A stretch of 64,000 nucleotides of DNA from the human T2T-CHM13v2.0 reference genome, Homo sapiens, in the NCBI RefSeq assembly GCF_009914755.1, contig NC_060930.1. One strand, 5' to 3'. Position numbers and translations under genes: made by a program. Below the pieces are notes generated by a model. The model searched no databases and was not told the origin of the DNA. It saw only the letters and a program-made list of their open reading frames with translations. This document shows, piece by piece, positions 37,071 to 59,700 of the stretch (positions within the stretch are counted from its first letter, which is position 1; each line of letters begins with the position of its first letter).

Positions 37071-37074
37071 GTAA

Positions 37075-37790
37075 AAATGCTTTTAAAATTATAGAGGAAA
37101 AAAGCCATTAAAAATATGTACCCAAGAATTAATAAAATATGATGGCCAAATAAAACGTTACCTATATGGAGGGATCCATAAACTTTACTTAGGAAGTGAA
37201 TTGAAGTTATATTTCAATAAATAAGCAAGAAAGAAGAAGAAACGACATTCAAAAAAAAGGTGATAGAATTCAGACAAGCAGGAACCTGAAGTTCTAGGAA
37301 GAGCATAGGGTGTCTCTTCCTAGAGAGCAGCCTAGAGACTAAGGATGCTAGTAAGGAATTCTATGTGGGGAAGGAAGGAAGGGAGTTTCTAAAAGAGTTG
37401 ATATAAAGGGATGTTTCCAAAGAAAATAGGGATATGTAAGGGTGTGGGGAAAGAAAGACAGTTACTTTAAAAAGGCATTAGATCCTACAGGAAAAACACA
37501 AATATATTTAGTGTTTGCAGTTTTATTATTTTGAATAATTGTTCACAGCAGAGCCTATAATTTTAAAGCTGCAATAATACCAACACTATTGTTTTTCAAT
37601 AAAGTTAAAATAACGTAGTTACAGAACAGATTGTATATATTATCATCCTTGGTAAAGTAAAAGTACAGGTGACAGAAGTGGGGAGGTAGAAAGTTGGGAA
37701 AAAGTGCAGGGACAGGCAGAAGTGCAGATCTCATTGTCATAAGACAGGAAGCCCTAGGGATACTATCCATAGTTAGGAAATGAAAAATAA
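37075..37790 (+). mobile_element. HAL1/L1ME-like relic, right part
   Basis: aatgcttttaaaattatagaggaaaa... A-rich ORF1-like continuation and 3' region; approximate. Confidence 0.45.
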
Positions 37791-38109
37791 GCAGATCAGT
37801 TAATTTTTTTTTATTTTCTAAAATCTTTTAAAATCTGAGATTCTCTAATTTTTTAAAAGAATATACTTTGAGTAGCCATCTACATATTTCTCCCCTTTTC
37901 TGACTAATCAAGTTTTGAGATCATAGCTTACTTTCACTGTTGCCTGTTTATCTTCCATTCCCTCTTCATCACAATCCTTTTCTCAATCATTGACTTTTAA
38001 TAGCCAAATCTGATGAATTCCTTTAGATTTTTCTGACATATTTGAGTCATTTGCTAATGAGAACTCATTTTTTAAAAACAGAGAGACTTTAGCTTTCCTG
38101 TTATTACTC

Positions 38110-41100
38110 TCCAAGGAGGATGATATTACTCCCAATATTGCAGGAGTTGTAAACATTTTGTGTGATATTTTTCCTAGTATCAAGAGGCAAGAGAGGATAA
38201 TATTACTCCCAATATCACAGGGGGTGTACATCCACCCTGTGATACTGTTTTTAATGCCCAGGGGAAAAGACAATGACATTACTCCCAATATCGCATGAGG
38301 TGAACTCACCCTGTATGATACTGTTCCTAATATTCAGAGTGGGAAAGGATGATATTAAGTCCAATATCTGAGAAGTGTACAAACCCCTGTGATATTGTTT
38401 CTTATATCCAGGGGGAGACAGGATAATATTACTCTGAATATCACAGGGGGTGTACACCCCCCATGTGATATTGTTTGTAATATCCAAGGGAGGAGAAGAT
38501 GATATTACTCTCAATATCTCAGGGAGTGTACACCCACCCTTTAATATTGCACATAATATCCAGTGGGGGAGAGGATATTACTTTCAATGTCCCTGAGAGT
38601 GTACATACCCCTTGTGATATTGTTCCTAATATCCAGGAAGGGAGAGGATGATATTACTCCAAATATCGCAGGGAGCGCACAACTTTCCAGAGATATGGTT
38701 CCTAATATCCAGAATGGGAGAGGATAATATTACTCCCAATATTGCAGGGGGTGTACACTCCCTCCTGTGATACTGTTTCTAATATCCAGGAAAAGAAAGA
38801 ATGCTAATAATGCCCAATATTGCAAGTGTACACTCATTTCCTGTGATATTGTTCTTAATATACGGGGCGGGGGGAGAGGATGATATTACTCCTAATATCG
38901 CAGATGGTTTACACCCCTTCTGTGACAATCTTCCTAATATCCAGTGAGGGGGAAAATAATATTACTTCCAATATTGCCGGGTGTATACGCCCCCCCACCG
39001 TGATGTTTTTCCCAATATCCAGGAGGGGAGAGGACGATATTAATCCCAATATCACAGGGGATGTACACCCCCCTGTAATATCGTTCCTGATATTCAAGAG
39101 GGAGAAGGATGTTATTACCCCCAATATCGCAGGGGGTGCACACCCTCTGTGATATTGTTCTTAATGTATAGGTTTGGAGGAAAGATATTAGTCCCAATAT
39201 CTCAGGAGGTTTACACCCTTTTGTTGATACTGTTTTTAATATACAGAGGGTAGAAGATGATATTACTCCCAGTATCGCAGGAGGTGTACACTCCCCCGTG
39301 ATGTTGTTTCTAACATCCAAGTAGGGGGAAAATGGTATTACTCCCAATATCGCAGAAGGTGTACACCTTCCCTGTGATATTGTTCCTAATATTCAGGGGG
39401 TAAGAGGATGATGTTACTTTCAATATTGCAGGAGGTGTACACCTTATCTGTGATGTAGTTTCTAATATCCAGGAAGGGAGTGGATTATATTACCACATTA
39501 TAGCAGGGGATGTACACGCCCTTGTGATATTGTTCCTAATATCCAGAGGGGGAGAGGATGATATCACTCCTAATAACGCAGGGTGTGTACACCCCCGTTA
39601 CATTGTTCCTAATATCCAGAAGGGGAGAGGATGACATTACTCCCAATATCTCAGGGTGGGTACACACCCCCTGTAATATTGTTCCTAATATCAAGGGGGA
39701 GAGAGGATAATATTACTCCCAATATCACAGGGGGTGTACACCTCCCCTGTGATATTGTTCTTAATATCCAGGGGGAAAGAGCATGATATTCCTCCTATTA
39801 TAGCAGGGCTTGTACACCACCCATGTGATATTGTACCTAATATACAGGAGGGGAGATGATTATATTACTTTCAATATCGCAGAAAGGGTACATCCCCTTT
39901 GTGATATTGTTCCTAATATCCGGGGGAAATAAGATGATATTACTCGTAATATTGCAGGGGGTGTACACCTTTTTGTAATGTTGTTCCTAATATCCAGGAA
40001 GGAAGAGGATGATATTACTCTCAACATAGAAGGGGGTGTACACTCGCCCTTTGATATTGTTCCTAATATCAAGGGGGGTGGGAATCATATTACTATCCAT
40101 ATCACAGAGGGTATAAAACCCCCCCATATGATATTGTTTCCAATATCCAGGGTGGAGAGGAAGATATTACTCTCGATATTGCAGGGTGTGTACACCCGCC
40201 CTTTGATATTGTTCCTAATATCAAGGGAGGGAGAGGATCTTATTATGTCCAATATTGCAGAACGAGTACACCCTCCATGAGATATAGTTCCTAATATCCA
40301 GGGGTGGAGAGGATGATACTACTCCTAATATCGCAATGGGTGTACACGCTCCCTGTGATATTGTTTGTAATATCCAGGAAGGGAGAAGATGATATTACTT
40401 CCAAGATCGCAGAGAGTGTAAACCTCCCTTGTGATATTCTTCTTAATATCCAGGGAAAAATACGATGATATTATTGTTACTATTCCAGGGGGTGTACACC
40501 ACCCCCTGTGATATTGTTCCTAATATCCAGAGGGAGAGAGGATGATGTTACTCCTAATATCTCAGGGAGTGTACACCTTTTCTGTGATATGGTTCCTAAC
40601 ATCCAGGAGGGGAGAGGAGGATATTACTCTCAATTTGGCAGGGGGTGCACATCTCCTGTAATATTGTTCTTAGTATTCAGTTTGGGAGAAAATGATATTA
40701 GTTTCAATATCGCTGTGGGTGTACACTTCCCCAGTGATACTGTTTTTAATATGTGGCGGTGGGGAGGATGATATTACTCCCAATATCGCAGGAGGTGTAC
40801 ACCACTCCTGTGATGTTGTTCCTAATATCCAGGCTGGGAGAAAATAATCTTACTCCCAATATTGCAGGGGGTGTACACACCCCTGTGATATTGTTCATAA
40901 TATTCAGAGGGAAAGAGGTTGATATTACCTTCAATGTCGCAGGGGTTGTACACCTTTCCTGTAACATAGTTCCTAATATCCAAGGGGAAAGAGCATGATA
41001 TTACTCCTATTATAGCGGGGGTGTACACCCCCCCATGATATTGGTCCTAACATTTAGTGGAGGGTGAGGATATTACTCCCAATATTTCAGGTGGTGTACA

Positions 41101-44100
41101 CCCTTCCTGTGATATTGTTCCTAACATCCAGAGGAAAAGAGGATGATATTACTCCCCATATTGCAGAGGTTGTACACACTTCCTCTGATACTGTTCCTAA
41201 TTTTCAGGGAGGGAGAGGATGATATTACATTCAGTATCGCAGGTGTACACCCCCGCTGTAATATTGTTCATAATATTTAGAGAAAAGGATGATATTACTC
41301 CCAATATCGCAGGAAGTGTACATCCACTCTGTTATATTTTTCCTAATATCCATGAGGAAAGAACATATTATCCTCCATTATCCAGAAGGTGTACACCCAC
41401 TCTGTGATGTTTTCATAATATCCAGGGGAAGAGAAAATGATATTGCTCTTAATATTGCATGGGGTGTACACTCCCTCATGATATTGTTCTTAATATCCAG
41501 GGGGAAAGGATTATATTACTTCCAATATCCCAGGGGTGAACACCACCCCTGGGATATTGTTCCTAATATCTAAAAAGAAAGATGAGGATATTAGTTTCAG
41601 TATCGCAGGGGGTATAAACCTCCCCTGTGTTATTGTTCCTAATATCCACTGGGGGAGGGGATGATATTACTCCCAATATGGCTGTGGGTGCACACCCCCA
41701 CTGTGATATTGTTCCTAATATAAAGGGGGCTGAGGATAATATTGCTCCCAATATCGAAAGGGATGTACACCCCTGCTGTGATATTGTTCCTAATATCGCA
41801 ATATCCTAACTCCCAATATTGCAGCAAGTGTACACCTCCCCAATGATATGTTTCCTAATACCCAGAAAAGGAGAGAATGATATTACTCCCAATATGCAGG
41901 GGGTGTACAACCCCCCACTGATATTGCTTATAATATCCAGGGGAGGGAGGATGATATTACTCCAAATATCACAGGGGGTGTCCACCTTCACGTCATATTG
42001 TTCCTAATATCCAGTGGAATAGAGGATGATATTACTCTTAATATCGCAGCAGGTGTACAACATTCCTGTAATATTGTTCCTAATATTTTTGGGGAAGAGA
42101 GGATGACATAACTCCTAATATCGCAGGGGGTGTACACCACCCCTGTGATATTGTTCCTAATATCTTTGAAGGGAGAGGATGATATTACTCCCAATGTCGC
42201 AAGGAGTGTATACTTTTTTTGTGATATTGTTCATATTATTCAGGGTCGAGAGGATGATATTACTTGCAATATCACAGGGAGTGTACACCCTCCTATGATA
42301 CTGTTCATAATATTTAGGGAAGGAGAGGATAATATTACAGGGGGTCAACACCACCCTGTGATATTGTTTGCAATATACAGAGGAGGAGAGGATGATATTA
42401 CTCACAATATCACAGGGGGTGTACACCTTCTGTGATATAGTTTGCAATATCAAGAAGGGAAGAGAATGTTACTACTCCGAGTATCACAGTTGGTACACAC
42501 CCCTCTGTAATATTATTCATAATATCCAGCTGGGGAGAGGATATTAATCCCAATATCACAGGGGTTATACACTCCCCTGTGATATTGTTGGTAATATTAA
42601 GGGGAGGGAGGATGATATTACTCCCAATGTCATAAACACCATGTGTGTACACCTTCCTGTAATCTTGTTTGTAATATCCTGGGAAGAAACAATGACATTA
42701 TACCCAATATCGCAGAGGGTGTCCACCCCACTGTGATACTGTTTGTAATATCCAAAGGGGGAGAGGATGATAGTACTTCCAATATGGCAGGGCATGTACA
42801 CCCTCCTGTGATATTGTTCCTAAAATCTAGCCAGAGTGGGGCGGGTAGAGGATATTTTTCCCAATATCACAGGGGATTTACACCCCCTGTGATATTGTTC
42901 CTAATATCCAAGGGGTAAAAGGATATTACTCCCAATATCGCAAAGGGTGTACATACACCCTGGAATATTGTTCCTAACATACAAGGAGGAAAGGATGATA
43001 TTATTCCCAACATGGCAGGGGATGTAAAATCTCCTGTGATATTGTTCGTAATATTCAGGTGGGGAGAGGATTATATTACTCTAAATATCGTAGGGTGGGT
43101 ACACCCCCCTGTGATATTGTTTGTAATATTCAGGGGGGAGAGAGGATGATATTTCTACCAATATCATAGATGGTGTACACCCTCCTGTGATATTGTTCAT
43201 AATATCTTGAAGAGGAGAGGATAATATTACTCTCAATATCGTAGGGGTGTACAAACCTTTGTGATAGAATTCAAAATATCTAGAAGCAGAGAGGATAATA
43301 TTACTCCGAGTATTGCAGGGGGTGTACATCCCCCTGTGATATTGTTTGGAATACCCAGGGGGAAAGAAGATGCTATTACTGCCAATATCACAGGGGGTTT
43401 ACACCCCTCTGTGATAGTGGTCGTTATATCCAGGAAGAGAGAAGATGATATTACTCCCAATATCGTAAACAACTTGTGTGTACACCCCTCTATGATAAAC
43501 ACCCTCATGGAATATTTTTTCTAATATCCAGAGGGAAAGAAGATTATATTACTCCCAATATCACAGAAGGTGTACACCCCCTCCTATGATATGCTTCATG
43601 ATATTCAGGGAATTGGAGGATAATATTACTCCAAAAATCTCAGGGGGTGTACACTCCCACTGTAATATAGTTAATAATATCCAGGGAGAGACAGGATGAT
43701 ATTACTCCCAATATCGTAGGGTGTGCCCACCCCTGCTGTGATATTGTTCCTAATATTTATAGGGGAGAGGATGATATTACTCCAAATATCGCAGGCGGTG
43801 TGCACCCCCCAGTGATATTGTTCCTAATATTCAGGGGAGGGGAAAGGATATGACACCCAATAACAGGGGTTATACACCCCCCACTGTGATGTTTTTTATA
43901 ATATCCAGGGGAGTAGAGGATGTTTCTCTTAATATCGCAGAGGGTGTACACCCCTCTGTGATATTGTTTGTAATATTTAGTGGGAAGGAGGATGTTATCA
44001 CTCCCAATATCACAGGGGCTGTACAACCCCCGGTGATATTGTTTGTAATAGCCAGGGTGGGAGAAGACGATATTATTGGCAATATCACATGGGGTGTGCA

Positions 44101-45409
44101 TCCCACTGTGATACTGTTCATAATATCCAGGGAAAAAGAGGACAATATTACTCCAAATATCGAAGGGGCTGTACACCCCCTCCCAGTGATATTGTTTGTA
44201 ATGTCCAGAAAGAAAAAGGATGATATTACTCCCAATATCCCAGAGTGTACACTCCGTGTGTGGTTGTTCATAATATCCAGGGAGGAGAAAATGATATTAC
44301 TCCCAATATCGCAGGGGGTGTACCCCTACCCGTGATATTGTTCAAAATATCCAAAGAAGGACAGGATGATATTACTCCCAATATCGCAGGAAATGTACAC
44401 CACCCCTGCAATATTGTTCTTAATATCCAAAAAGGAAAGGTTGATATTAATCACAATATCACAGGGGGTGTACACTACTCCTGTGGTATTGTTCCAAATA
44501 TCCATGGAGGGAGAAAATTACATGACTCCCAATATCGTCGGGGGTGTACACCCCTCCTGTTATATTCTTCCTAATATCAAGGGAAGAAGAACAATGTCAC
44601 AGGGTGTAAAACCCTCCTGTGATATTGTTTTTAATATTTAAAGGGGAAAGAGAATAATATTACTCCCAATATTGCAGGGGGTGGACACCCCCTCTGTGAT
44701 ATTGTTCTTAATATCCAATGAAAATGAGTATGATATTACTCCCAATATCGCAAAGCGTGTACACTCCTTTTGTGATATTGTTCCTAGTATCCAGGGGGGA
44801 AGACTATGATGTTACTACCAATATCACAGGGGGTGTATACGCCCCCTGTGATATTGTTCCTAATATTCAGAAGGAAATAGCATGATATTACTCCCAATAT
44901 GGAAGGGTGTGTACACCCCCTGCGATTTTTTGTTTTTTAGACAGAGTCTCGCCCTGTCGCCCAGGCTGGAGTGCAATGGCACGGATCTCTGCTCACTGCA
45001 ACCTCCACCTCCCAGGTTTGAGCAACTCTCCTTCCTCAGCCTCCAGACTAACTGGGATTATAGGCGCCTGCTGTCATGCCCGGTTAATTTTGTTATTTTT
45101 AGTAGAGACGGGGTTTCACGATGTTGGTCAGGCTGGTTTTGAACTTTTAACCTCAAGCAATCCACCCACCTCAGCGTCCCAAAGTGCTGGGATTACAGGT
45201 GTAAACGCCCCCTACCCCCAACACCGTGATATTGTTTCTAATATTCAGGGAGAAAGAGGATGATGTTACTCCCATTATCACAGGGGGTGTACACCTCCCC
45301 TGTGATATTGTTCCAAATATTCAAGGGGGGAGAGGATGATATTATTCTTAATATCGCAGAAGGTGTACATCCCCGCTGATATTGTTTCTAATATTTGGGG
45401 GTGGGGGGA
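38110..45409 (+). repeat. SATR1-type satellite, ~75-bp monomers, forward polarity (block 1)
   Basis: Consensus GGATGATATTACTCCCAATATCGCAGGGGGTGTACACCCCCTGTGATATTGTTCCTAATATCCAGGGGGGAGA; spacing ~75 bp over the first monomers. Confidence 0.92.
44926..45203 (-). mobile_element. AluS inserted in the satellite
   Basis: T-tail from 44926, agacagagtctcgccctgtcgcccaggctggagtgc...cccaaagtgctgggattacaggtgt; extreme 5' end degenerate, TSD unclear. Confidence 0.93.
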
Positions 45410-48400
45410 GGGGAGGGTGATATTGCTCCTTATATCATGGGGTGTGTACACCTCCTGTGATCTGGTTTATAATATCCAGAGTGGGTGAGGAGGGTGATAT
45501 TACTCCTAATATCGCAGACAATGTGCAACCGCCTGTGATATGACTTGTAATATCCAGGAGGGGAGAGAAACATGATGTTACTCATTATATCTTGAGGGAT
45601 ATATGACCCCCTGTGATATAATTCGTAATATCTATGGGGAAAAAGAAGGGTGATGTTACTCCCCATATCACGGGGGATGGACACCCTTCTGTGATATGGT
45701 TCATTATACCCAGGTAGGGAAAGGAGGGTGATATTACTTCCCAAACCCCGGGTGTGTACACACATCTGTGATACGGTTGATAATACCCAGGGTGGGAGAG
45801 GAGGGTGATGTTACTTTCAATATCCTGGAGGGTGTACACTTCCCTGTGATATGGTTCAGAATATCCAGGAAGGGAGAAGTGGGTGATATTACACCCCACA
45901 TCACGGGGGGTGTACATCCCTGTGATATGGTTTGTAATATCCAGAAGGGGAGAGGGAGATATTACTTCTCATGTCGTGGGAACCCTACACAACCCTGTGA
46001 TATGGTTCGTAATATGCGGGGTGGGGGGGGAGTGGAGAGGGTGATATTACTCTCCGTATACTGGAGTGCATACACCCCCCTGTGATATGGTTTGTAATAT
46101 CCAGGGGAGGGGGAGAGGGTAATATTACTCCGTGTATCACAGAAAGCGTGAAAGTGTGATAAGGTTCGTAATCTCCCAAGTTTGAGAGGCTGCTGTTACT
46201 CTCCATATAGCAGGGGGCATACACCACTCTGTGATATGATTCGTAATATCCCAGGGAGGAGAGGGTGATATTACTTCCCATATCGCAAGGGGCAAATACC
46301 CTCCTGTGATATGGTTTGTAATATCCCAGTGGGGAGAAGGTGATATTACTCTCCATATTGCAGGGACGTACACCCGCTTGTGATATGGTTTGTAATATTC
46401 TGGGTGGGAGAGGGTAATATTGCTCTCCATAGCATGAGGGGTGGACACCCCCCTGTATATGATTCTTAATATTCCAGGGGAGAGAGGATGATATTACTCC
46501 CCACATCACAGAGGCGTATACCCCCCTGTGTATACATACACAGTATACATACAAGCATACATACTTGGGCGTATACCTCCCAAGTAATATCTTGGGAGAA
46601 AGAAGTTGATATTACTTTCCATATCGTGGGGGCATACACCCCCTTGTTATATGGTTCATAATATCTTGTGGGGTGGGGGGAATATTACTCTCCTAATCGC
46701 AGAGGCGTACACACCTCTGTGATATGGTTCGTAACATCCCAGTGGGGAGAGGGTTATATTACTCCTTATACCGCGGGAGGTGTACACCCCCGTGATATGG
46801 TATGTAATATCTCGGGAAAGAAAGGGTGATATTACTTTCGACATCCTGGAATCTTACACCCCACTGTGACATGGTTCGTAATTTCCAGGAAAGCAGAGGG
46901 TAATATTACTCCCCATATTGCAAGGAGTGTACACCCCATGTGACCTGGTTCGTAATATTTCGGGGGAAAAGTGTGATATTACTTTCCATATTGCGGGGGG
47001 TGTACACCCCCGTGTGACATGGTTAGGAATATTCCAGGGGCGCGTGGGTGATATTACTCACCATATCGTGGAGGACGTACACTTCCATGTGATATGGTTC
47101 ATAATATTCTGGGGGGCATAGGGTGATATTACTCTCCATATAGCGGGGATCATACACACCCCTGTGATATGGTTCATAATATGCAGAGGGAAAGAGGGTG
47201 ATAATACTTTTCATATCACAGTGGGTGTACAACCCCCTACACCCCCTTTTGATAAGATTCATAATATTCCAAAGGGGAGAGGATTATACTACTCCCCATA
47301 GAGCGGGATGTATACACTCCTCTGTGATATGGTTCATATCCCAGGAAATAGAAGGTGATATTACTCCTCATATCATGGGAGGTGTGCACCCCTCATGATA
47401 TGGTCCGTAATATCTGAAGGGGCGGAGAGGGTGATATTACTCCCCATACTGTGGGGGATGTACACTCCGCTTTTATATGATTCATAATATCCAGGAAGGG
47501 AGAGGGTGATATTGCTTCCCATATTGAATGGGGAGTGGTGTACACTCCCCTGTGATATGGTTTGTAATATCCAGGAAAAAAGAGGGCAGTATTACTCCCC
47601 ATATCGTGGAGGGTGTGATGTGCCTCCTAATGTCTTGGGGGCAGAGGGTGATATTACTCCTATTACTCCCCGTATCACGGGGGTTGTACAACTCTTTGTG
47701 ATATGTTTCATTATATCCCGGGGGGGAATAGGGTGATATTACTCCCCATATCACAGGGGGCATACACCCACCTGTGATATGGTTTGTAATAGAGGGCAAA
47801 AGGGTGATATTACTCCCCATGTTGCAGGGGTTTATGCCCCCCTGTGACGTGGTTAGTAATATCCCGGGTGGGAGAGGGTGACATTGTTTTCCATATCACT
47901 AGGGGCATACACCCCCCTGTGATATGGTTTGTAATATTCCAGGGGAGAGAGGTTGATATTACTCCCCATATCGCTGAAGGCTTTTACCTTCCCCCACCCC
48001 GTGATATGGTTCATAATATCTTGGGAAGGAGAAGCCGATATTGCTGCCAATATTGGGGGAGGGTGGGGGGACGTACACCCCTCTGTGATACGGTTCATAA
48101 TATCACAGTGGGGAGAAGGGACTATTACTTTCCTTATTGTGGGGGCATACACACCCCTGTGATGTGGTTCGTAATATCTTGAAGGGAGAGGGTGATATTA
48201 GTCCCCATATCGCCCATGGTGTACACCACCTAGTGATATGGTTTGTAATATCCCACAGGGGAGAGGGTGATATTACTCTAGCTATCGTGGGGCATACACC
48301 CCCTGTGACATGGTTCGTAATTTCCAGCAAAGGAGAAGGTGATATTACTCCCCATATCGCGAAGAGCATACACTTTCCTGTGACATAGTTCGCAATATTT

Positions 48401-49415
48401 TTTGGGGGAAAGGGTGATATTACTTTCCATTTTGTGCCGGGTATACACCCCCCTGTGACATAGTTTGTAATATCTTGGGGAAGAGAGGGTAATATTACTC
48501 CCCATATCGTGGAGGGCATAAAACCCCTGTGATATGGTTTGTAATATTCCATGGGGGAGAGCGTGATATTACTTCCCAAATGGCGTGGGGTGGGGGGGAG
48601 GTACACCCCCTGTGATATCGTTCATAATATCTCGGGGAAGAGAGGGTGATATTACTTCTCATATCACGGAGGGCGTACACCCCCCTGTGATATGGTTTGT
48701 AATATCTTGGGGGGAGAGGGTGATATTATTCCCATATCACTGGGGGAATACATCTTCCTGTGATGTGGTTCCTAATATCCTGGGGCGGAGAGGGTGATAT
48801 GGTTTGTAATACTTCAGGAGAAAGAGAGTGATATTATTCTTCATATCACGGGTGGTGTACAGCACCCTGTGATATGGTTCATAATATCCCAAAGGGGAGA
48901 GAATGATGTTACTCCCATATCACGGGCAGGTACACCCCCTCCGTGATATGGTTCATAATATCTCGGAGTGGAGAGGGTGTTATTACTCTCTATATTGCGG
49001 GAGGCGTGCACCTCTTTGTGATATGATTTGTAATATCCCAGTGGTGGAGGATACTATTACTCCCTATATGGCTGGGGGTGTACACTCCTTTGTGTATGGT
49101 TTGTAATATCTCGGGGGAGCAGCGGGTGAAATTACTGCCCATGTCGCAAGGGGAGTACACCCTCTTTTGATATTGTACATAACATGCCGGTCAGGAGAAG
49201 GTGATATTACTGTCCATATTGTGGGGGGCGTACAGCCCCTTGTGATATCGTTCATAATACCCCGAGGGGGAGAGTGTGTTATTACTGTTCATATCGCCAG
49301 GGAGTACAACCTCCTGTGATATGGTTTGTAATATCCAGAGAGGGAGAGGGTAATATTATTGTCCATATCACAGAGGGCTTTCACCCCCTTGTGATATGGT
49401 TCATAATGTCCAGGG
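45410..49415 (+). repeat. Variant satellite block (probably SATR2-type)
   Basis: Monomers read GAGGGTGATATTACTCCCCATATC...GTGATATGGTT(TG/CA/CG)TAATATC instead of GAGGATGAT...CCCAATATC...GATATTGTTCCT. Confidence 0.88.
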
Positions 49416-52400
49416 GAGGAAGAGGATGATATTACTTTCAATATCACAGGGGGAGTAAACCTCCCTGTGATATTGTTCATAATATCCAGAGAAAAAGAAA
49501 ATGATATTACTCCCAACATCGCAAGAAATTTACACCTCACTCTTATATTGTTTGTAACATCTGGGAGTTGGGGAAAGGATATTACACCTAATATCACAGG
49601 GGTTGTACACCCACTTGTAATATTGGTCGTAATATCCAGTAGGGGAGAGGATGATGTTACTCCCAATATTCTAAACACCCTGTTTGTACACCCACCGTGA
49701 TATTTTTTGTAATATTCGGGGGGAGAGAGGATGATATTACTTCTAATATCACAGGGCGTGTACCCCCCACCCTGGGGTATTGCTCTTAATATTCAGGGGG
49801 GTGAGGATGATATTACTCCATATATCGCAGGGTGTGTACACCCCCTTTAATATTGTTTGTAATATCAAGTGCAAAGAGGATGATATTACTCCCAATATCG
49901 AAAATGGTGTGCACCAACCTGTTATATTGTTTGTAATATCCAGAAAGGGAGAGGAAGACATTACTCCTAATAAAGCAGAAAGTGAAAAACACTTTGTGAT
50001 ATTGTTCGTAATATCCAGGGAGGAAGATGATGATATTACTCTCAACATGGTAAACACGCTGTGTGTACACCCTCTCTGATATTGCTCCAAATATCCAGAG
50101 GAGGAGAGGATGATATTACTGCCAATATGGCACAAGGTGTACATTCTTCCTGTTACATTGTTTCTGATATCCAGGATGGAGCCGATGATATTACTCTTAA
50201 TATTGCAGGGGGTAACCCCATCTGTGATATTGGTCCTAATATCCAGGGTGGGAGAGGATGATATTATTCTCAATATCACAGGAAATGTACACCTTCCCTG
50301 TGATATTGTTCGTAATGTTTAGGGGGTGAGAAGATAATATTACTCCCAATATCACAGGGGGTGTACACCTTCCCGATGACATTGTTGCTAATATGGGGGA
50401 GAAGATGATATTACTCCCAATATTACAGAAGGTGTACACCCCCCTGTGATATTGTTCCTAACATCCAGAAGAAAAGAGGATAATATTACTCTCAATATTG
50501 AAGGAGGTGTACACCCACCCTGTGATATTGTTCTTAATATCCAGGAAGAAAGAGAATGATATTAGTCTTGATATTGAAGGAGATGTACACATCCCCATGA
50601 TATTGTTCCTAATATCTAGAAAAGGGGATAATGATATTGCTCCCAATATCTCAGGGGGTGTACACCTTTTCTGTAATATTGTTTCTAATATCCAGGGGGA
50701 GGAGAAATAGTATTATTCCCAATATTGCAGGGGTTGTACACACTTTCTGTGATATTGTTCATAATATCAAGGGGGAAACAGGATGTTATTACTCTCAATA
50801 TCACCCATTGTGATATTGTTTTTACTATCCAGGGTAGGAAAGGATAATACTACTCCCAATATCGCAGGGGGTGCACACCTGCCTTGTGATATAAAGGGGG
50901 AAAGGATGATATTACTCCCAATATCGCAGGCAGTGTACACCCCCTTTTGATGTGGTTCATAATATCCGAGAGGGGAGAGGATAATATAATTCTCCATATC
51001 GCAGTGGGTGTACATCACCATTTGATATTGTTCGTAATATCCAGGGGGAGAGAATGATATTACTCCAATGTCGCAGAATGTTTACACCACCCTGTGATAT
51101 TGTTCATAATATCGAGAGGGAAAGAGGATGGTATTACTCCCTGTATCTCAGGAAGTGTACACCTCTTTGTGATATTTTTCATTATATCCAGGAGGGAGAG
51201 GATAGTATTACTCCCAATATCACAGAAGATATAACCCCCCTGGGATACTGTTTGTAATACCTAGAGAAAGAGAGGATGATATTACTCCAAATATAGCAGG
51301 GGGTTACGCTCCCCTGTGGTATTGTTTGTAACATCCAGAAGAAAAGAAGATGATATTACTGCCAACATCTCAGGGGAGGTACACCTTTCTATGATATTGC
51401 TCATAATATGCAGAAGGGAAGAGGAAGATATTACTCCTAATATTGCAGGGGGTGTACATCCCCTTGTTATATTGTTCATAATATTCAGAGGGGAGAGGAT
51501 TATATTACTCCCAATATCGCAGAAGGTCTACCCCACCCTATGATATTGCTTGTAATATCCAGGCAAAGAAGAGGATGATACTACTCTCAATATCGAAGGG
51601 GGTGTACACCCATCCTGTGATATTGTTCCTAATATACAGGGAAGAGAAGATAAAACTACTACAAATAACGCAGGGGTTGTCCACTCATCCTGTGATATTG
51701 TTCCTAATATCCAGGGGCTATCCGCATTCCCTGTGATATTGTTTCTAATATCCAGGGTGGGAGATGATAATATTACTCCCAATGATGCAGGGGATGTACA
51801 CCCTCCTCCGTGAAACTGTTCTTAATATCCAAAGCGTGAGAGGATATTACTCACAATATTGCAGGCGGTGGAAACTCCTCCCGTGATATTGTTTCTAATA
51901 TCCAAAGGAAGAGAGGATATTACTCCAAATATAGCAGGGGATGAACACACCCCGGTGATATTGTTTCTAATATCTGGGGTAAAGAGGATGATATTACCCT
52001 TAATATCACAGGGGATGTATATCTACCCTGTGATATTGTTTGTAACATCCAGAATGGAATAAAATAATATTACTCCCAATATCGGAGGGGATGTACACCC
52101 GCCCTGTAATATTGCTCCTAATATCCAGGGGATAGAGGATAATGTTGCTCCCAATATCGCAGGATGTGTAAACCACCCCTGTGATATTGTTCCTAATATG
52201 CGGGGGTGGGGGGGAGGGATGATATTATGTCCAATATCACATCAAATGTACATCTCCCCTGTAATATTCTTTTTAATATACAGGGGAGGGGGAGAGGATG
52301 ACATTACTCCCAGTTTTGCAGGGGATATACACCCCCCCTGTAATATTGTTTCTAATACCCAGGGGGGTAGAGAACGATATTACTTTCAATATTGCAGGCG

Positions 52401-53713
52401 ATGTAAACGCCTTCTGTGATATTGTTCCTAATATCCAGGATATTACTTTCAATATCACACTGGATGTACACGCCCCCTTGATATTTTTCCTAATATCCAT
52501 GGGGAGAAAGGATGATATTATTCCAAATATTTCAGGGGCTGTAACTCCCCACCCCCCTGTTATATTGTTTCTAATATTCAGCAGGGTAGCAACTGATATT
52601 ACTCCCAATATCACAGAAGATGTACGCCCTCCCTGTGATCTTGTTTCTAATATCCAGGGGGAAGAGGATATTATTTTCAATATCACAGGAGGTGTAATCC
52701 TTTTCTGTGATATTGTTTCTATAATCAAGGAAAGAGAGGATAATATTACTCCCAATATCACAGGGAATGTACAAACCCCTCTGATATTGTTTTTAATATC
52801 CAAAGGGAAAGAGCATGATATTACTTCCAATATCGCAAGGGGTGTACATCCCCCCGTTATATTGTTCCTAATATACATGTGGGGAGAGGATAATATTACT
52901 CCCAATATCGCAGGGGATTTACATTTCCCTGTGATATTGTTTCTAACATTCAGGGAGGGAGAGGATGATATTAATCTTAATATCACAAGGGGTGTTCACA
53001 CCTCTGTGATATTGTTCCTAATACCCAGTGGGGGGAAGGTAAATATTACTCGGAATATTTCAAGGAGTGTACACACACCTTGTGGTATGGTTCCTAATAT
53101 ACAGGGGAGAAGAGGATGATACTACTCCAAATGTCGCAGGGGGGTGATATTGTTTTTAATATTTAGGGGAGGAAAGAATAATATTACTCCCAATATTGCA
53201 GGGTGTGTACAACCCCCTTTGATATTGTTCCTAATATTTAGGGAGGGAGACGATGATATTACTGTCAATATCGCAACGGGTTTACACCCCGCCGTGATAT
53301 TGTTCCTAACATCCAGGGAGGGAGAGGATGATATTACTCACAATGTACACCCTCCCATGATATTGTTTTTAATATCCCAGGGGAAGGCAGTGATATTATT
53401 CCCAGTATAGCAAGAGTTGTACACCTTTTGTGTAATATTTTTCTAATATCATGGGGGAAGAGAGGAAGATATTATTCCCAACATCACAAGGGGTGTGCAC
53501 CCACCCTGTGATATTGTTTTTAATATTGAGAAGAAAAGAGAATGACATTACTCCCAATATCACATGGGGTGAAGACCCCCTCTGTGATATTTTTTCTAAT
53601 ATTCAGAGGGTGAGAGGATGATATTACAGCCAATATCGCAGGGGTTGTACAAACTCCTGTGTTATTGATTCTTATATCCATAGGGAGACAGGATGATATT
53701 ACACCCAATATCG
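49416..53713 (+). repeat. SATR1-type satellite, forward polarity (block 3)
   Basis: Return to CCCAATATC/GATATTG monomers up to the fold-back point. Confidence 0.92.
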
Positions 53714-56700
53714 CAATTTTGGGAGTAATATCATCCTTTCCCCTCCTGGATGTTAGTAACAATATTACGGGAGAGTGTACACCTTTTGCAATATTGGGAT
53801 AAATATCATTCAATCCACCCCTGGTATTACAAACAATGTCACAAGAAGGGGTGTATATCCCCTGCGATATCGGGAGTAATTTAATCCTCTCGCACCCTGG
53901 TTGTTAGAAACAATATCACAAGGGGGTTTACACGCTTGCAATATTGGAAGCAACATCATACTTTCTTCGACGGGCTATTAGAAACAATCTCACTGGGGCA
54001 CTGCATACCGCCTGCGATATTGGAAGTAATATAATCTTCTCCCCACCTTGATATTAGAAACAATATCACAGGGAGCGTGTAAACCCTCTGTGATATTGAC
54101 AGTAATGTCATCCTTTCCCTCAATCTATATTAGGAACAATATCACCAAAGGGATGTACACCTTCTGTGATATTGAGGGTATTATCATCCTCTTCCCTCCT
54201 GGATTTTGGGAACACTATCACGTGGTGGGTCTACACCCCTGAAATATTGGGAGTAGTATCATCCTCTCTTCCAGTAGATATTAGGAACAATATCACGCGG
54301 GTGGGGGGCGTGTACAACGCCTGCAATATTGGGAATAATATCATTCTCTCTTTCCCTGGATATTAGGAACAACAACGAGGGGGCGGGGGGAATAAACATC
54401 TCCTGTGATATTTGAAATAACATCATTCTATCATCCTTCGGATATTAGGAACAATATCACAAGAAGATTGTACACCCTTTGCGATATTGAAAGTAATATA
54501 ACACTCTCCTCCTGGATATTATAAACAATATTACGGGGGGTGTACACCCCCTGTCATATCAGTGGTAATATTATCTTCTCCCCCTCTGGATATTTAAGAC
54601 AATATCAAAGCGAAGGTGTACACCTTTGCGTTATTTGGAGTAATATATTTTTCCCTCCCTGGAAATTAGGAACAATATCCCAGGTGGGGTGTACACTCCC
54701 TGCGATATTGAGAGTAATATCACTCTCTCCTTCCTGGATACTAGGAACAATTTCAAAGAGGGGGTGTACAACACCTGGACTAATATCATCTTCCCCTCCC
54801 CCTAATTAACAGGAACAGTATCACAGGGACGATGTACACCCCTGCGATGTTGGGATTTGTATCATCCTCTTCTCCCACTGTGTATTAGAAACAATATCAC
54901 AGAGGAAGTGTACACCCCCTGCAATCCTGGAAGTAATATCCTCTCCCCACTTTAATCTTAGGAAAAAATATCACTAGGAAAGTGTACAAAACTACAATTT
55001 TGAAAGTAATATAATCCTCTTCCTCCCTTCATATTAGAAACAATATCACAGGGCGGGGTGTAAACTCTCTGAGATATTGGAAGTAATATTATTCTCTCCC
55101 TCAGTGTATATTAGGAAGAATATCACAGGGGGTGTGTACACCCCTTGCGATATTGCAAGTAATATCCTCTCCCAACCTGGATATTAAAAACAACATCACA
55201 GGGCTGTGTACACGCCCTGCGATATTGGGAGTAATATCATCCTCTCCTCTCCTGGATATTAGAAACAATTTCAAAGGGGGAGCGTACACCCCCTGCGCTA
55301 TTGAGATTAATATCATTTTCTCTCCCCCCGATATTAGAAACAATATCACAGGGAAGGGGTACAGCCCTTATGATATTGGGAGTAATATTTTCCTCCCCCC
55401 TCTGGATATTAGAAACAATATCACAGGGGGGTGTGCAACCCCTGCAATATTGAAGGTAATACCATCCTCTCCTTCACTGGAAATTAAGAAAAATGTCACA
55501 CGGGGTTTGTAAACCACAAGTGATATTGGTAGTAATATTATACTCTCCCCCCTGGATATAGGGAACAATATTACGTAGGAGGGTACACCCCCTGCGATAT
55601 GGGGAGTAATATTATCTTCTCCACCCCTGGATATTAAAAATAATGTCACAGGGAAGTTGTATACCTGCTACGATATTGCAAATAATATGATCCTTGTTCC
55701 CCCGGATATTAGGAGCAATAAGCGGGAGGGTGTACATCCCCTAATATAGTGGGAGTAATATCCTCTGTGCTCCTCATTATTAGAAACAATATCACCGGGG
55801 GTGGTGTACTCCCTCTTCGATATTGGGTGTAATATCATTTTTTCCCAACTTAAATAATAAGAACAATATCACAGGGAGGTTTTCCCTCTTATGATATTGA
55901 GAGTGATGTCCTCTCCTCCCCTAAATATTAGGAAAAATATCAAAGTGGGGGTGCACAACCTCTGGGATATTAAAACTAATATCATTCTCTCTCCACCTAA
56001 ATATTAAAAACAATATCAAAGGGAGGGCATACACTCTTTTGATATTGGGAGTAATATTATTCTCTCCCCCCATATTAGGAACAATATCACAAAGCAAGTG
56101 TACACCCCCTGAATTATTAAGAGTAATATCATTTTCTCTCCCCACGGATATTAGAAAAAATAGCACTGGAAATGTGTACAACCCCTGCAATATTGAAAGT
56201 AATATAATCCCTTTTCTCCCTGCATATTAAAAAAAAATCACAGGAGTGGGTGTAAACTCCCTGCGATATTGAGAGTAATGTCATCCTCTCCCCACTTTAT
56301 GTTAGAAACAGTATCACTGGAGGTGTGTACATCCTGTGCGATATTGCAAGTAATATCCTTTTTCATCTTGGATATTAAAAACTATATCATAGGGGGGTGT
56401 ACATGCCCTGTGATATTGGGAGTAATATCATCCTCTTTTCTTTTGGATATTAGAAACAATATCGCAGGGGAAGAGTACACCCTGTGCGACATTGAGAGTA
56501 ATATTATTTTCTCTTCACCTAGTTATCAGAAACTGTATGACCGGGCGGGGGGGTTGTACAGCTTCTGCGATATTGGAACTAATATCTTATTTTCCCCTGA
56601 ATATTAGGAACAACAACACAGAGTTTTGTACACCCCCTGCCATATTGAAATAATATTATCTTCTTCTTCACTGAAATTAAGAACAATATCACAGGGGAAT

Positions 56701-59700
56701 GTAAATCCCCTGTGATATTGGGAGTAATATCATCCTCTCCCTTCCTGGATATTAGGAACAATATTACAGTGAGGGTGTACACCTTTTGTGATATTGGGAG
56801 TAATATCATCCTCTCCCCACCCGGATATTAAAATCAATATCACAGGAACGTTGTACACCTGCTGCGTTATTGGGAGTAATGTCACCCTCTCCCCACTCTG
56901 GATATTAGGAACAATATCACGGGGGTGTGTGTATACCCCCTATGTTATTGGGAGTAATACCATCCTCTCCACTCCTACATATTAGTAACAATTTCATAGG
57001 TGGGATGTACACACTCTGTGATATTTTTAATAATATCATTTTCTCCCCCCCTGAATTTTATAAACAATATCACAGGGTGAGTGTACACCCCCTGCGATAT
57101 TGAGAGTAATATCATCCTCTCACCCCCTGGATATTAGAAACAGTATCTCAATGGGGGTGGTACACTGTCTGCAATATTGAGAGTAATATCATCCTCTCTC
57201 CCCAGGATATAAGGAACAATATCACAAAGGAGTTTACACCACCTGCAGTATTGGGAGTAATATCATCTTCTCTTCCACTGGATATTAGAAATAATCTCAC
57301 AGGGAGTGTGTACACCCCCTGCAATATCGGGAGCAATATCATCCTCTTCCCTCTTGGATTTTAAAAACAATATCCCAGGGCTGTTGTACACCACTTGCAA
57401 TATTGAGAGTAATATCATTATCTTTTTTCCTAGATATTAAGAACAATATCACGACGGGGGTTGTGTACATACCCTGCGATACTGGGAGTAATATCCTCTC
57501 TTTCCCTGGATATTAGGAACAAAATCACAGGGGAGTTGAAGACTTCCTGCGATATTTGGAGTAATATCGTTCTTTCCCTTTCCGGATATTAGAAATAATA
57601 TCACAAAGGAGGTGTTCACTACCTGTGGTTTTGGGAGTAATATTAGTCTCTTAGCCTTTGGATATTAAAAACTATATCACAGCGGGGGTGTACATCCTCT
57701 TGGATATTGAAAGTAATGTCACCCTCTTTCTCCCTGGATATTAGAAACAGTATCACAGGAGGGGGTGTACACCCCCTGGGATATTGGAAGTAATATTAAC
57801 CTCTCCTTCTCTGGATATTAGGAACAATATCTCAGAATTGGTGTGCACCCCCTGAGATATTGAAAGTAATATTATCCTGTCCCTTCCTTCATATTAGGAA
57901 CACTATCACAGGGGTAGGGGATAAAGTCCCTGTGACATTCGGAGTAATATTAACCTCTCCCCCACTGTATAGTAGGAACAATATCACAGAAGATGGTGTA
58001 TACACCATGTGATATTTTAAGTAATGTCATCCTCTTTCAACATGGGTGTTATAAACAATATCACAGGATAGTGAACACGCCCTGCAAAATTGGGAGTAAC
58101 ATCACCCTCCTACCTACTGATTATTAGAAACAATATCCCAGAAGGAGTGTATACCTCCTGTGATATTGATAGTAATATTATTTACTACCATTCTGGATAT
58201 TAGAAACAATATCACACAGGGTTCGTACGGCCTCTGTGATATTGGGAGTAATATTATTTTCTCCCCCCCCCCGATATTAGGAAATATGTCACAGGTACAC
58301 CCCCTGCGATATTGAAAGTAATATAATTCTCTTCTTCACTAAATATTAAGAACAATATCACTGGGGGTGTGTAAACCCCCTGAGATATTGAAAGTAATAT
58401 CCTCTCCCCCCGGGATATTAAAAACAATATTACACGAAAATTGTACACCTTCTGCACAATTGGGAGTAATATCATTTTTTCCCTTGCCGGATATTAAGAA
58501 CACTTCCTTCGATATTGGGAGTAATGTCATCTTTTTCTCTCTTGCATATTAAGAACAATATTAGAAGGGGTTTGTACACCCCCTGCAATAGTGGGAGTAA
58601 TATCATCCTCTTCCTCCCTGCATATTAGGAAAAATATCACAGAATGGGTATACACCCTCTGTGATATTGAGAGAAATATCTTCCTATTCACTCCTGGGTA
58701 TTAGAAATAATATCACAAAGTTGGGGGTGTACACCCCCTGCGATACTGGAAGTAGTATTATTTTCTCGCCCCCTGGATATTAGAAACAATATCACAGGGG
58801 GGTTTACACCCATGAAATATTGGAAGTAATATCATCCTTTCTTCCACTGGATGTCAGGAACAATCTCACAGGAGGGGTGTACACCCCCTGCGATTTGGGG
58901 AGTAGTATAATCTCCCCCCTTGATATTAGAAACTATATCTCAGGGGGCTTATAACCCCCCTGTGATATTGACAGCAATAATCATCTTCTCCCTCATTGGA
59001 TATAAAAAAAGTCACAAGTGGAGTGTACACCCCCTGCGATATTGGGAGTAATATCATCCTCTTTTCTCCTGAATATTAGGAATAAAATCAAAGGGCAGGT
59101 GTACACCACCTACGATATTAATAGCATCTTCTCTTTCTCTAGACATTAGGGACAATGTCACAGTGGGGGCATAGACTCCCCCTGTGATATTGAGAGTAAT
59201 ATCATCATCTCTTTCTCTGGATATTGGGAACAATATCACAGAGGGGTTTTACACCCACTATGATATTTGTAGTAATATTATTCTGTCCTCTCCTGGATAT
59301 TAGGAACAATACCACAAGAAGGTTCTACACCCTTTGCGATATCGGGAGTAATATCATCCTCTCTTCCCCTGGAAATTAGGAACAATGTTACAGGGAGCGT
59401 GTACACCCCCTGCCATATTGGGAGTAATGTCATCTTCTCTGCCCTGGATATTTAACGCCATATCACAGGGGTGGTGTACACTACCTGCGAAATTGGGAGT
59501 AATATAATCCTTTCCTCTCTTGATATTAGAAACAATATCAAAAGGGGTGTATCACAATTACACCCCTTGCGATATTGGGAGTAATATCATCCTCTCTCCC
59601 CTTGAATATTAGGAACAATATCACAGGGGTGTGTACACTTTCTGTGATAATGGGACTAATGTCGTCCTCTTCCCCCCTGGATATCAGGCACAATATTACA

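What the first reader, a model, noticed from the sequence alone, without database searches (positions are those of the whole stretch)
45410..49415. Compensatory double substitution preserves the monomer stem across a 4-kb satellite sub-block
Seen: outside this block the dyad arms are cAATATC...GATATTg (e.g. ~39720-39747). Inside it they are cCATATC...GATATGg (e.g. ~45663-45699, ~47746-47782). An A:T pair has become C:G at mirror positions in most of ~50 monomers. The change keeps the long central stem but removes the innermost pair of both small hairpins, indicating which fold matters. A linked spacer change (GAGGAT>GAGGGT) also marks the block. Inference: either selection on a hairpin or palindromic binding site, or arm-to-arm templated correction in a founder monomer before amplification. 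It may reflect only one founding event.
Basis: partly seen in the sequence, partly recalled or inferred. Interest (0 to 1): 0.8.

Follow-up and report, generated by a model that had tools for sequence, protein, structure and literature searches.

The report
Old satellite subfamily keeps its hairpin
The 4-kb block is a piece of an old, genome-wide subfamily of a 75-base hairpin-shaped satellite repeat, so its A:T-to-C:G swap is one inherited event; yet across subfamilies the founder repeats kept the hairpin intact while their copies decayed.

Summary
In the 54 monomers of 45410-49420, 33 carry C at column 19 and G at its mirror column 54. None of 291 monomers elsewhere in the window do.

It is not a local event and not about 50 observations. 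The same type (T4) lies on at least 12 chromosomes. It arose in two steps: A19>C first, giving subfamily T3, which is about as common genome-wide (85 exact-pattern hits against 76). T54>G and A5>G followed.

The copies show no constraint. Mirror positions do not covary in 1221 copies (80 seen, 73.2 expected). The pair is no better kept than other columns, and copies fold about half as well as their consensus.

At the level of subfamily founders the whole-monomer dyad is kept more than chance allows. Mirrored complementary changes also occur at 18/55, 14/59, 8/65, 10/63, 24/49 and 25/48. Four of five subfamily steps keep hairpin stability better than random substitutions do (P 0.014-0.029, and 0 of 3000).

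Best reading: founders keep the hairpin and copies decay. Hairpin-dependent expansion is favoured over templated repair, but this is not resolved.

The parts
38116..53715 (+). Plus-oriented arm of the 75-76-bp dyad satellite array (about 207 monomers)
   Evidence: TRF periods of 75-76 and multiples; profile hits, best strand per place
53742..64000 (-). Inverted arm of the same array (138 monomers; runs off the window end)
45410..49420 (+). The block: 54 monomers of subfamily T4. Markers: C19:G54, G5, column 41 missing, G/A59, and in part G27, C33 and C68.
49422..50025 (+). Eight monomers of the older type T2 right of the block (A19/T54, A5, column 41 mostly missing, G/A59). Type T1 follows.
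   Evidence: column strings
44927..45205 (-). Antisense Alu-like insertion that splits a monomer, three monomers left of the block. The Alu identity is recalled from its look (poly-T start and typical Alu words); it was not searched.
   Evidence: the 267-bp gap between monomers; masked stretch 44880-45208 in the hub note
53689..53760 (.). Head-to-head (fold-back type) junction where the array switches strand. The first third of a + monomer is joined to the first third of a - monomer over a short spacer.
   Evidence: the same junction is in the paralog L012
47729..47803 (+). Well-kept T4 monomer. It folds as one nested hairpin: outer arms 7-13 with 60-66, inner stem 18-55.
   Evidence: -16.5 kcal/mol as single-stranded DNA, z -3.9
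39703..39778 (+). Flank-type (A19:T54) monomer used as seed for the profile
   Evidence: -15.6 kcal/mol, z -3.8

Best explanation
The block is a 54-monomer piece of an old subfamily (here called T4) of a 75-bp interstitial satellite, probably the family that RepeatMasker calls SATR1/SATR2. Each monomer of this satellite is one long nested dyad.

The C19:G54 pair was made once, in the line of founder monomers, in two steps. T2 (A:T) gave T3 (C19 opposite T54, a mismatch), which was itself amplified and spread. T3 gave T4 by T54>G together with A5>G. All C:G monomers in the block carry it by descent (shown).

After amplification the copies drifted freely. There is no covariation, no extra conservation, and the hairpins are half decayed (shown).

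Across the family, however, the founders of successive subfamilies kept or improved the whole-monomer hairpin through mirrored changes far more often than random substitution would (shown statistically, on few events). This is the pattern of a master copy under constraint with decaying copies.

The most likely cause (inferred) is that the hairpin helps the step that makes new arrays. Hairpin-prone units stall replication and promote slippage and fold-back, so variants with an intact dyad are the ones that expand. Short arm-to-arm templated repair may supply some of the mirrored bases.
For: Descent and spread:
- T4 exact-pattern hits number 76, on at least 12 chromosomes, with 0 control hits.
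- The whole array, including block and inversion junction, has a collinear copy of about 96% identity at chr6:58.078-58.096 Mb.

Stepwise series from the consensus of 1864 pooled monomers:
- T1>T2: loss of column 41 and C59>G/A.
- T2>T3: A19>C only.
- T3>T4: A5>G and T54>G, plus partial A27>G and T33>C.
- The layers lie side by side in the order T2, T3, T4 at chr19:44.32 Mb and chr6:62.21 Mb.

Drift in copies:
- In 1221 A:T-type copies, complementary double changes on the long stem number 80 against 73.2 expected. Slid controls give ratios of 0.76-1.09. The inner palindrome gives 39 against 37.2, and the small hairpins 62 against 61.8 and 38 against 38.0.
- In 115 copies in T3 surroundings there is one CG.
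- In 202 copies in T4 surroundings there are 144 CG and 52 single states. Conservation of columns 19 and 54 is 0.82 and 0.89, against a mean of 0.82 over all columns.
- Copies fold at -7.6 to -9.7 kcal/mol on average, against -13.5 to -19.7 for the consensus sequences.

Founder level:
- On the true dyad axis (column sum 73), 3-6 co-occurring run-level substitution pairs are complementary, against 0.4-1.3 in column permutations (P 0.0009-0.028). No other axis has more.
- A run of about 17 GC-rich monomers at chr6:64.006 Mb (T6) changed both outer arms and both inner arms in mirror fashion: 8/65, 10/63, 24/49 and 25/48.
- C59>G in T2 pairs with C14.
- Against random sets of as many substitutions, drawn from the spectrum seen in copies, the observed descendants are unusually stable. 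T1>T2 P=0.029; T3>T4 P=0.014; T2>T5 P=0.029; T4>T6 0 of 3000. Only T2>T3 is destabilising (P=0.87).
- In an unsupervised clustering, the true subfamily clusters repeat this (P 0.004-0.055). Clusters that only capture recurrent polymorphisms do not (P 0.27-0.92).
Against: - The number of independent founder events is small: five transitions and about seven mirrored pairs, two of them (5/68, 6/67) near the poorly aligned monomer ends. If only 19/54 and 18/55 are accepted, the chance of two or more mirrored pairs is 0.025-0.17.
- T6 was noticed because of its mirrored pairs, and its consensus in the test rests on 6 monomers picked for one such pair.
- The mismatched intermediate T3 was amplified about as well as T4. 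T5 is less stable than its ancestor (-13.5 against -18.4). So any advantage of an intact dyad is modest.
- Some founder-level changes weaken the stem and were never mirrored: A27>G, T33>C and G29>T.
- Only 24 sources (about 2100 monomers) of one human genome were sampled. I chose them from hits to block-type and related patterns, and no other species could be read.
- No experiment shows that these monomers form hairpins in cells.
Confidence: 0.55

Rival explanations
1. Templated arm-to-arm correction alone, without selection. A short template switch or hairpin-templated repair in the founder copied C19 across the dyad to give G54, and did the same at the other mirrored pairs.
For: - Every mirrored change puts in exactly the complement of the partner base.
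- In T6 the changes at 48 and 49 are adjacent, and one of them also mends the old G25/T48 mismatch. One 2-nt templated patch explains this more simply than two point changes.
- Template switching is known to fix stems in one event (PMC8794818: abstract and start of the introduction read; PMC5453318: search listing and start of abstract only).
- The arrays carry fold-back junctions.
Against: - If templating ran at a steady rate, the far more numerous mismatches in array copies would show it. They do not: 80 complementary double changes against 73.2 expected in 1221 copies, and 1 CG among 115 copies in T3 surroundings.
- The asymmetric internal loops (columns 14-17 against 56-59) were never made symmetric, so only very short patches would fit.
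- The 19/54 case is a single base, which a point mutation explains equally well.
Confidence: 0.2
2. Chance plus hitch-hiking. T54>G was one of a few neutral changes in the monomer that happened to be amplified, and the mirror relation is a coincidence.
For: - It is one event.
- The intermediate was viable.
- Given C19, the chance that T54>G is among 2-5 further substitutions is 0.4-1%. That is small, but the finding was picked from a scan of very many windows.
- One mirrored pair somewhere in the family is expected in 25-56% of simulations.
Against: - Three to six mirrored pairs lie on the true axis, against 0.4-1.3 expected.
- T6 has 7 of 12 substitutions that keep or improve the dyad, and 0 of 3000 random sets were as stable.
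- Four of five transitions are in the stable tail.
Confidence: 0.12
3. The hairpin matters as RNA. Master copies are transcribed and the fold is kept for a small-RNA or hairpin-RNA role.
For: - A SATR1-derived hairpin is listed as a microRNA precursor, hsa-mir-3683 (PMC3059204, passage read).
- The consensus sequences fold strongly as RNA, at -26 to -42 kcal/mol.
Against: - Both strands fold equally well, and G:T-type pairs do not favour one strand.
- No Rfam family matches window 38000-64000 at gathering score.
- No expression data were on hand.
- That this array belongs to SATR1 is itself untested.
Confidence: 0.08
4. Ongoing purifying selection on every monomer in the block, for a cruciform or for a palindromic protein site.
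For: The pair is present in 33 of 54 monomers and the long stem is the best fold of well-kept copies.
Against: - Column 19 is kept in 72% and column 54 in 85% of block monomers, no better than their neighbours at 85-93%.
- 16 of 54 block monomers are in single-change states at the pair.
- There is no covariation in copies.
- Copies have lost about half of the fold energy.
- Monomers are only about 65-75% alike.
Confidence: 0.03

Closest known systems
SATR1/SATR2 interstitial satellites of primates (RepeatMasker/Dfam names)
   Same: - Dispersed interstitial arrays on many chromosomes.
- Mixed arrays of several variants, including a GC-rich one.
- Inverted cores.
- Links with segmental duplications. 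The passages read describe such mixed and inverted SATR arrays (10.1101/2025.08.04.668424), call SATR1 an interstitial satellite (10.1101/2021.07.12.451456), and place SATR1/SATR2 in the Xiao/DA duplicons (PMC2700803, PMC5088589).
- Pattern hits of the commonest type lie at chr3:75.4-75.7, chr3:128.4, chr7:7.18 and chr8:6.8 Mb. I recall these as regions of those duplicons.
   Different: The label was never tested: no Dfam or Repbase consensus was on hand. None of the passages read describes the monomer's dyad, the subfamily series T1-T6 or mirrored changes.
Compensatory base-pair change in structured RNAs, and the master-copy succession of SINE subfamilies (recalled knowledge)
   Same: Both sides of a pair change and pairing is kept. 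The consensus of successive subfamilies keeps the fold while the copies decay.
   Different: - This is a tandem DNA satellite with no known transcript or propagation machinery.
- The mismatched intermediate is not rare.
- Both strands fold alike.
Template-switch (quasi-palindrome) mutation
   Same: The new base equals the complement of the mirror base. It can mend a stem in one step (PMC8794818: abstract and introduction start read; PMC5453318: listing only).
   Different: The change in the block is one base, not a multi-base patch. No excess of such events is seen in the thousands of mismatches in array copies.
Dyad symmetries and non-B DNA in centromeric satellites
   Same: Short dyads in satellite monomers have been proposed to matter through structure and not through sequence (PMC5889037, listing and start of abstract only).
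   Different: There the dyads are under 10 bp and centromeric. Here a nested dyad of about 60 nt fills the whole monomer of an interstitial or pericentromeric satellite, and the evidence is mirrored substitution, not enrichment.
Hammerhead-bearing satellite pDo500 of cave crickets
   Same: It was the only listed satellite paper that also contained the word 'compensatory' in my search (PMC2837043, listing and start of abstract only).
   Different: That fold is a known ribozyme acting as RNA. No known RNA family matches here.

Membership tests
SATR1/SATR2 satellite | Sequence match to the curated consensus (Dfam/Repbase) | not testable with these tools
No repeat library is on hand.
SATR1/SATR2 satellite | Interstitial arrays dispersed over many chromosomes, mixed variant arrays, inverted cores | tested here: met
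   Pattern hits on most chromosomes. Clear strand-switch junctions inside arrays in 11 of the sources examined (searches show the strand strings). A GC-rich variant run lies next to one such junction.
SATR1/SATR2 satellite | Part of the Xiao/DA duplicons | tested here: inconclusive
   Hits at chr3:75.4-75.7, chr3:128.4, chr7:7.18 and chr8:6.8 Mb. That these are Xiao/DA sites is recalled, not checked. The papers were read in passages only.
Covarying base pair under selection for structure | Both partners changed and the Watson-Crick pair is kept | tested here: met
   A19:T54 became C19:G54 in 33 of 54 block monomers.
Covarying base pair under selection for structure | Several independent double changes | tested here: inconclusive
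   Pair 19/54 has one origin. C19 arose in at least three lineages and only one gained G54 (by eye). Other pairs changed together in other subfamilies: 18/55 in T5; 8/65, 10/63 and 24/49 in T6.
Covarying base pair under selection for structure | Single-change intermediates rare | tested here: not met
   For 19/54: CT 85 and AG 23 against CG 76 exact-pattern hits. For 18/55: singles 69 and 62 against double 136.
Covarying base pair under selection for structure | Pair conserved, and mirror positions covary, among present copies | tested here: not met
Template-switch mutation | Derived base is the complement of the mirror position | tested here: met
Template-switch mutation | Contiguous multi-base patch arising in one step | tested here: inconclusive
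   It is a single base at 19/54. Columns 48-49 are adjacent in T6. No ancestral reconstruction was possible.
Master-copy subfamily succession | Successive subfamilies differ by a few diagnostic changes, and the copies decay | tested here: met
Master-copy subfamily succession | Fold kept in the consensus beyond chance | tested here: met
   (few events; see the caveats under evidence against)
Master-copy subfamily succession | A known propagation mechanism that needs the fold | not testable with these tools
   Inference only

The most novel reading that the evidence does not exclude
This human interstitial satellite spreads by a hairpin-dependent step. Only monomer variants whose 60-nt nested dyad is intact give rise to new arrays. 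Founders therefore evolve like a structured master element, with at least seven mirrored base changes over four subfamily transitions, while the arrays they leave behind decay. Structure, not sequence, would be what this satellite inherits.
Probability: 0.4. Interest if true: 0.7.

Novelty: new variant of a known kind. Interest (0 to 1): 0.5.

Why it matters
Whether non-B DNA structure matters for satellites has mostly been argued from enrichment. Mirrored substitutions are a direct evolutionary test, as they are for RNA.

If the founder-level signal holds in complete ape and macaque genomes, it would give a concrete, testable case in the human genome. The series T2, T3, T4 and T6 would serve as natural intact, broken, mended and rewritten hairpins.

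It would also show that what drives a satellite's expansion is the fold of its unit. It could explain why these arrays are so often inverted and sit at breakpoints of segmental duplications.

If the signal does not hold, the block is an ordinary subfamily marker.

Tried and rejected
- A first profile build took insert columns as model columns. I rebuilt it with fixed columns.
- A first spectrum simulation used copies filtered on the very columns under test, which set their weights to zero. I discarded it and redid it with copies chosen by their neighbours.
- Strand-switch junctions at the dyad centre would have pointed to flipped-register exchange. The window junction and most others are fold-back type and lie off centre.
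- Positional homology between T4 blocks of different loci: there are only register-free alignments of about 65%, so no collinearity is visible.
- Strand-specific (RNA-like) folding: both strands fold alike.
- Known RNA families: none match in 38000-64000.
- k-means clusters mostly caught recurrent polymorphisms. I used them only as an unsupervised check.
- Earlier findings were not open.
The sample therefore stayed at 24 sources, and the rest of this array (chr6:62.188-62.205 Mb) was not read.
- Other species could not be searched.
- Supplements of the bioRxiv papers are closed. Figure S17 of 10.1101/2025.11.03.686349, on single-stranded DNA signal over SATR1/SATR2, could bear on hairpin formation and was not seen.
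Full report
**What is there.** From 38116 to the window end lies an array of 75-76-bp units. A 76-column profile built from the window cuts it into 345 monomers. A plus arm runs to 53715 and an inverted arm starts at 53742.

Each monomer is one nested dyad on the axis 'column i + column j = 73':
- outer arms: 7-13 pair with 60-66 (GATATT... with ...AATATC);
- a 4-nt asymmetric internal loop: 14-17 against 56-59;
- an inner stem: 18-27 pair with 46-55;
- a G-run/C-run and a central palindrome around GTAC, with one or two extra C on the right.

The consensus folds as single-stranded DNA into that one long hairpin, never into the two small hairpins. Well-kept natural monomers do the same, at -13 to -16.5 kcal/mol and z about -3.8 to -5.3.

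**The observation.** It holds as written.
- In the 54 monomers of 45410-49420, the states at 19/54 are CG 33, with 16 single-change states, one T:A and four with a gap.
- In the 291 other monomers, AT is 246, CG 0, AG 8 and CT 6.
- The block also has column 41 missing (93%), A27>G (52%), T33>C (46%), C59>G (54%) and A68>C (41%).
- A27>G and T33>C lie in the stem and have no mirrored partner change.

**It is not a local event.** The window's assembly could be searched.
- The block has a 96% copy at chr6:58.087-58.090 Mb.
- The whole stretch 37004-55865 of the window is collinear with chr6:58.078-58.096 Mb at about 96% identity. That stretch includes the antisense Alu at 44927-45205 and the strand-switch junction.
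- With four patterns of equal stringency (20 fixed bases), the genome holds A19/T54 1272 times, C19/G54 76, C19/T54 85 and A19/G54 23 times. Control hits were 0-1.
- The C:G type lies on chromosomes 1, 2, 3, 5, 6, 8, 11, 12, 15, 16 and 19, among others.
- T4 blocks of different loci align only at about 65% in any register. Monomers inside the block are about 65-75% alike. So both the amplification and the spread are old.

**A stepwise series.** I fetched 25 stretches of 10 kb and pooled 1864, later 2097, monomers from 24 sources, leaving out the two paralogous stretches. The consensus sequences form a simple series:
- T1 (n=507) to T2 (n=254): loss of column 41 and C59>G/A.
- T2 to T3 (n=109): A19>C only.
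- T3 to T4 (n=130, the block type): A5>G and T54>G, with A27>G in 58% and T33>C in 32%.

T3, the mismatched intermediate, forms runs in 8 of the fetched sources, on chromosomes 14, 8, 7, 6, 9, 4 and 19. At chr19:44.32 Mb and chr6:62.21 Mb the layers T2, T3 and T4 lie side by side in that order.

By eye, the 85 C19/T54 hits fall into at least three lineages. About 49 are T3-like, 20 are copies of one monomer in acrocentric and pericentromeric duplications, and 16 belong to a 'GGC/GTC' type. Only the T3 lineage went on to G54.

**The copies drift.**
- In 1221 A:T-type copies, complementary double changes at the nine pairs of the long stem number 80 against 73.2 expected from the single frequencies. 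Controls with the partner slid by 1-3 columns give ratios of 0.76-1.09.
- The inner palindrome gives 39 against 37.2, and the small hairpins 62 against 61.8 and 38 against 38.0.
- In 846 copies in A:T surroundings, CT is 24, AG 15 and CG 1, against 0.5 expected.
- In 115 copies in T3 surroundings there is one CG.
- In 202 copies in T4 surroundings, CG is 144 and single states 52. Columns 19 and 54 are kept at 0.82 and 0.89, against a mean of 0.82 over all columns and 0.93 for the A/T arms.
- Copies fold at -7.6 to -9.7 kcal/mol on average, about half of their consensus.

So nothing keeps the pair in the arrays, and the many C:G monomers are one change counted many times.

**The founders do not drift.** I took as run-level substitutions the non-consensus bases held by most of 6-12 neighbouring monomers. 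I then asked on which axis co-occurring pairs of them are complementary.
- The true axis, 73, has 4 such pairs with windows of 8: 19C/54G, 18T/55A, 5G/68C and 6A/67T. No other axis has more than 2.
- Over seven settings the count is 3-6, against 0.4-1.3 in column permutations, with P from 0.0009 to 0.028.
- With substitutions drawn from the site- and base-specific spectrum seen in copies, P(3 or more) is 0.0008-0.03 and P(4 or more) is at most 0.004. P(2 or more) is 0.025-0.17, which matters because 5/68 and 6/67 lie near the poorly aligned ends.
- Given C19, the chance that T54>G is among 2-5 further changes is 0.4-1%.
- The 18/55 pair defines a second widespread subfamily, T5. Exact-pattern hits are T/A 136, T/G 69 and C/A 62.
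- C59>G in T2 pairs with C14, which also lies on axis 73.

The settings with smaller windows flagged a run at chr6:64.0062-64.0075 Mb, T6. It has about 17 monomers of 79 bp, is GC-rich and lies next to a strand switch. In it:
- the outer arms have become GCTCTT... and ...AAGAGC;
- the inner arms have become CATATGG and CCATATG;
- so pairs 8/65, 10/63 and 24/49 changed on both sides, and T48>C mended the old G25/T48 mismatch.

Seven of its 12 consensus differences from T4 keep or improve the dyad. The small hairpins are abolished outright and the nested long hairpin stays perfect. This settles which fold is the one kept. The strict T6 pattern occurs only at that locus (3 hits). The one-sided patterns give 1 hit (a junction monomer) and 0 hits.

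**A test on fold energy.** For each transition I replaced the observed substitutions by as many random ones from the copy spectrum and folded the result.

| Transition | Observed energy (kcal/mol) | P (random set as stable) |
|---|---|---|
| T1>T2 | -16.3 to -18.4 | 0.029 |
| T2>T3 | to -15.0 | 0.87 |
| T3>T4 | to -19.1 | 0.014 |
| T2>T5 (8 substitutions and a 3-nt loss) | -13.5; random mean -7.9 | 0.029 |
| T4>T6 (12 substitutions) | -19.7; random mean -8.3 | 0 of 3000 |

An unsupervised k-means split gave the same answer. The true subfamily clusters gave P of 0.004, 0.011, 0.055, 0.046 and 0.014. Clusters that merely gather recurrent polymorphisms, and a T3-like cluster, gave 0.27-0.92.

**Reading.**
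- Shown: descent from one founder, the two steps, the drift of the copies, and a non-random keeping of the dyad in founders.
- Inferred: why the dyad is kept.

A steady rate of arm-to-arm templating cannot be the whole story. The copies carry thousands of mismatches, have had as much time or more, and show no excess of mirrored repair. Selection on every monomer is contradicted by the same data.

What fits is a filter, or a burst of templating, at the step that founds new arrays. Units that form stable hairpins are the ones prone to stalling, slippage and fold-back. The fold-back junctions in these arrays would be a by-product.

The filter must be mild, because T3 and T5 also expanded.

The adjacent 48-49 change in T6 hints that short templated patches contribute. 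I cannot separate templating from selection on these few events.

An RNA role has no support here. Both strands fold alike and no Rfam family matches. One paper does list a SATR1-derived microRNA precursor (PMC3059204, passage).

**Known context.** Passages read describe the following:
- SATR1, a GC-rich SATR1v and SATR2 in mixed arrays, with inverted and forward SATR1 arrays inside the core units and inverted duplications flanking the arrays (10.1101/2025.08.04.668424);
- SATR1 as an interstitial satellite (10.1101/2021.07.12.451456);
- SATR1/SATR2 as parts of the Xiao/DA duplicons and at breakpoints (PMC2700803, PMC5088589);
- ZNF141 and ZBTB24 signal on SATR repeats (10.1101/2023.02.27.530095, 10.1101/2023.08.31.555516).

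None of these passages mentions the dyad or mirrored changes.

A search for SATR1 or SATR2 listed 25 of 31 papers. A search for satellite DNA with 'compensatory', 'dyad', 'monomer' and 'secondary structure' listed 15 of the 91 papers holding at least four of the five terms. Among those 15, the only satellite paper that also contained 'compensatory' was the cave-cricket hammerhead paper. These two searches are my only basis for saying the pattern is not in print.

That this array is SATR1 was not tested.

**Verdict.** As evidence it shrinks to one old, two-step event in a subfamily marker. The wider idea behind it, that the dyad of this satellite is kept through mirrored change, gains support from other subfamilies. 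It deserves a full cross-species census.

Noticed in passing
window 37004-55865 and L011/L012 (chr6:58,078,001-58,096,429): The array with the block, the Alu and the strand-switch junction is part of a duplication of at least 19 kb that lies on both sides of the chr6 centromere, at about 96% identity. The copy lacks about 280 bp near window 48800-49084.
   Followed up: partly
window 44927-45205: An antisense Alu-like element is inserted into a monomer three monomers left of the block, and is shared with the paralog. The identity is recalled from its look and was not searched.
   Followed up: no
window 53689-53760: The strand switch of the array is a head-to-head junction of two monomer first-thirds over a short spacer (fold-back type). 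Clear strand-switch junctions occur in 11 of the sources examined.
   Followed up: partly
L024:1184-2460 (chr6:64,006,184-64,007,460): This is a GC-rich run (T6) of about 17 monomers of 79 bp, next to a strand switch. All four arms are rewritten in mirror fashion and the central GTAC has become GTCC. It may correspond to the GC-rich SATR1v of the macaque paper.
   Followed up: partly
L019, L021, L026, L028, L029 and many places: Subfamily T5 has a shorter unit (hits spaced 63 bp) and T18:A55. It has 136 exact-pattern hits on many chromosomes. On chr16 (14.8, 16.2 and 18.5 Mb) duplicated copies carry C18 with A55 on a T5-like background, a possible intermediate or revertant.
   Followed up: no
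L022 (chr19:44.322 Mb) and L030 (chr6:62.205 Mb): Both arrays show the same order: about 7-8 T3 monomers, then three A:T monomers, then T4. This suggests that an already layered array was copied between loci.
   Followed up: no
L033:3022-3451 and 7388-7815 (chr9:42.18 Mb): AT-rich spacers of about 430 bp lie between minus and plus SATR-like blocks and recur with a period of about 4.4 kb. This resembles the core unit described for macaque mixed arrays.
   Followed up: no
columns 24-25, 26-27 and 33-34 of the monomer, e.g. window 45410-49420: The block keeps CG where the flanks have CA or TG (columns 26-27 and 33-34). These block markers could be retained or regained CpG sites, not new changes, which bears on which state is ancestral.
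   Followed up: no
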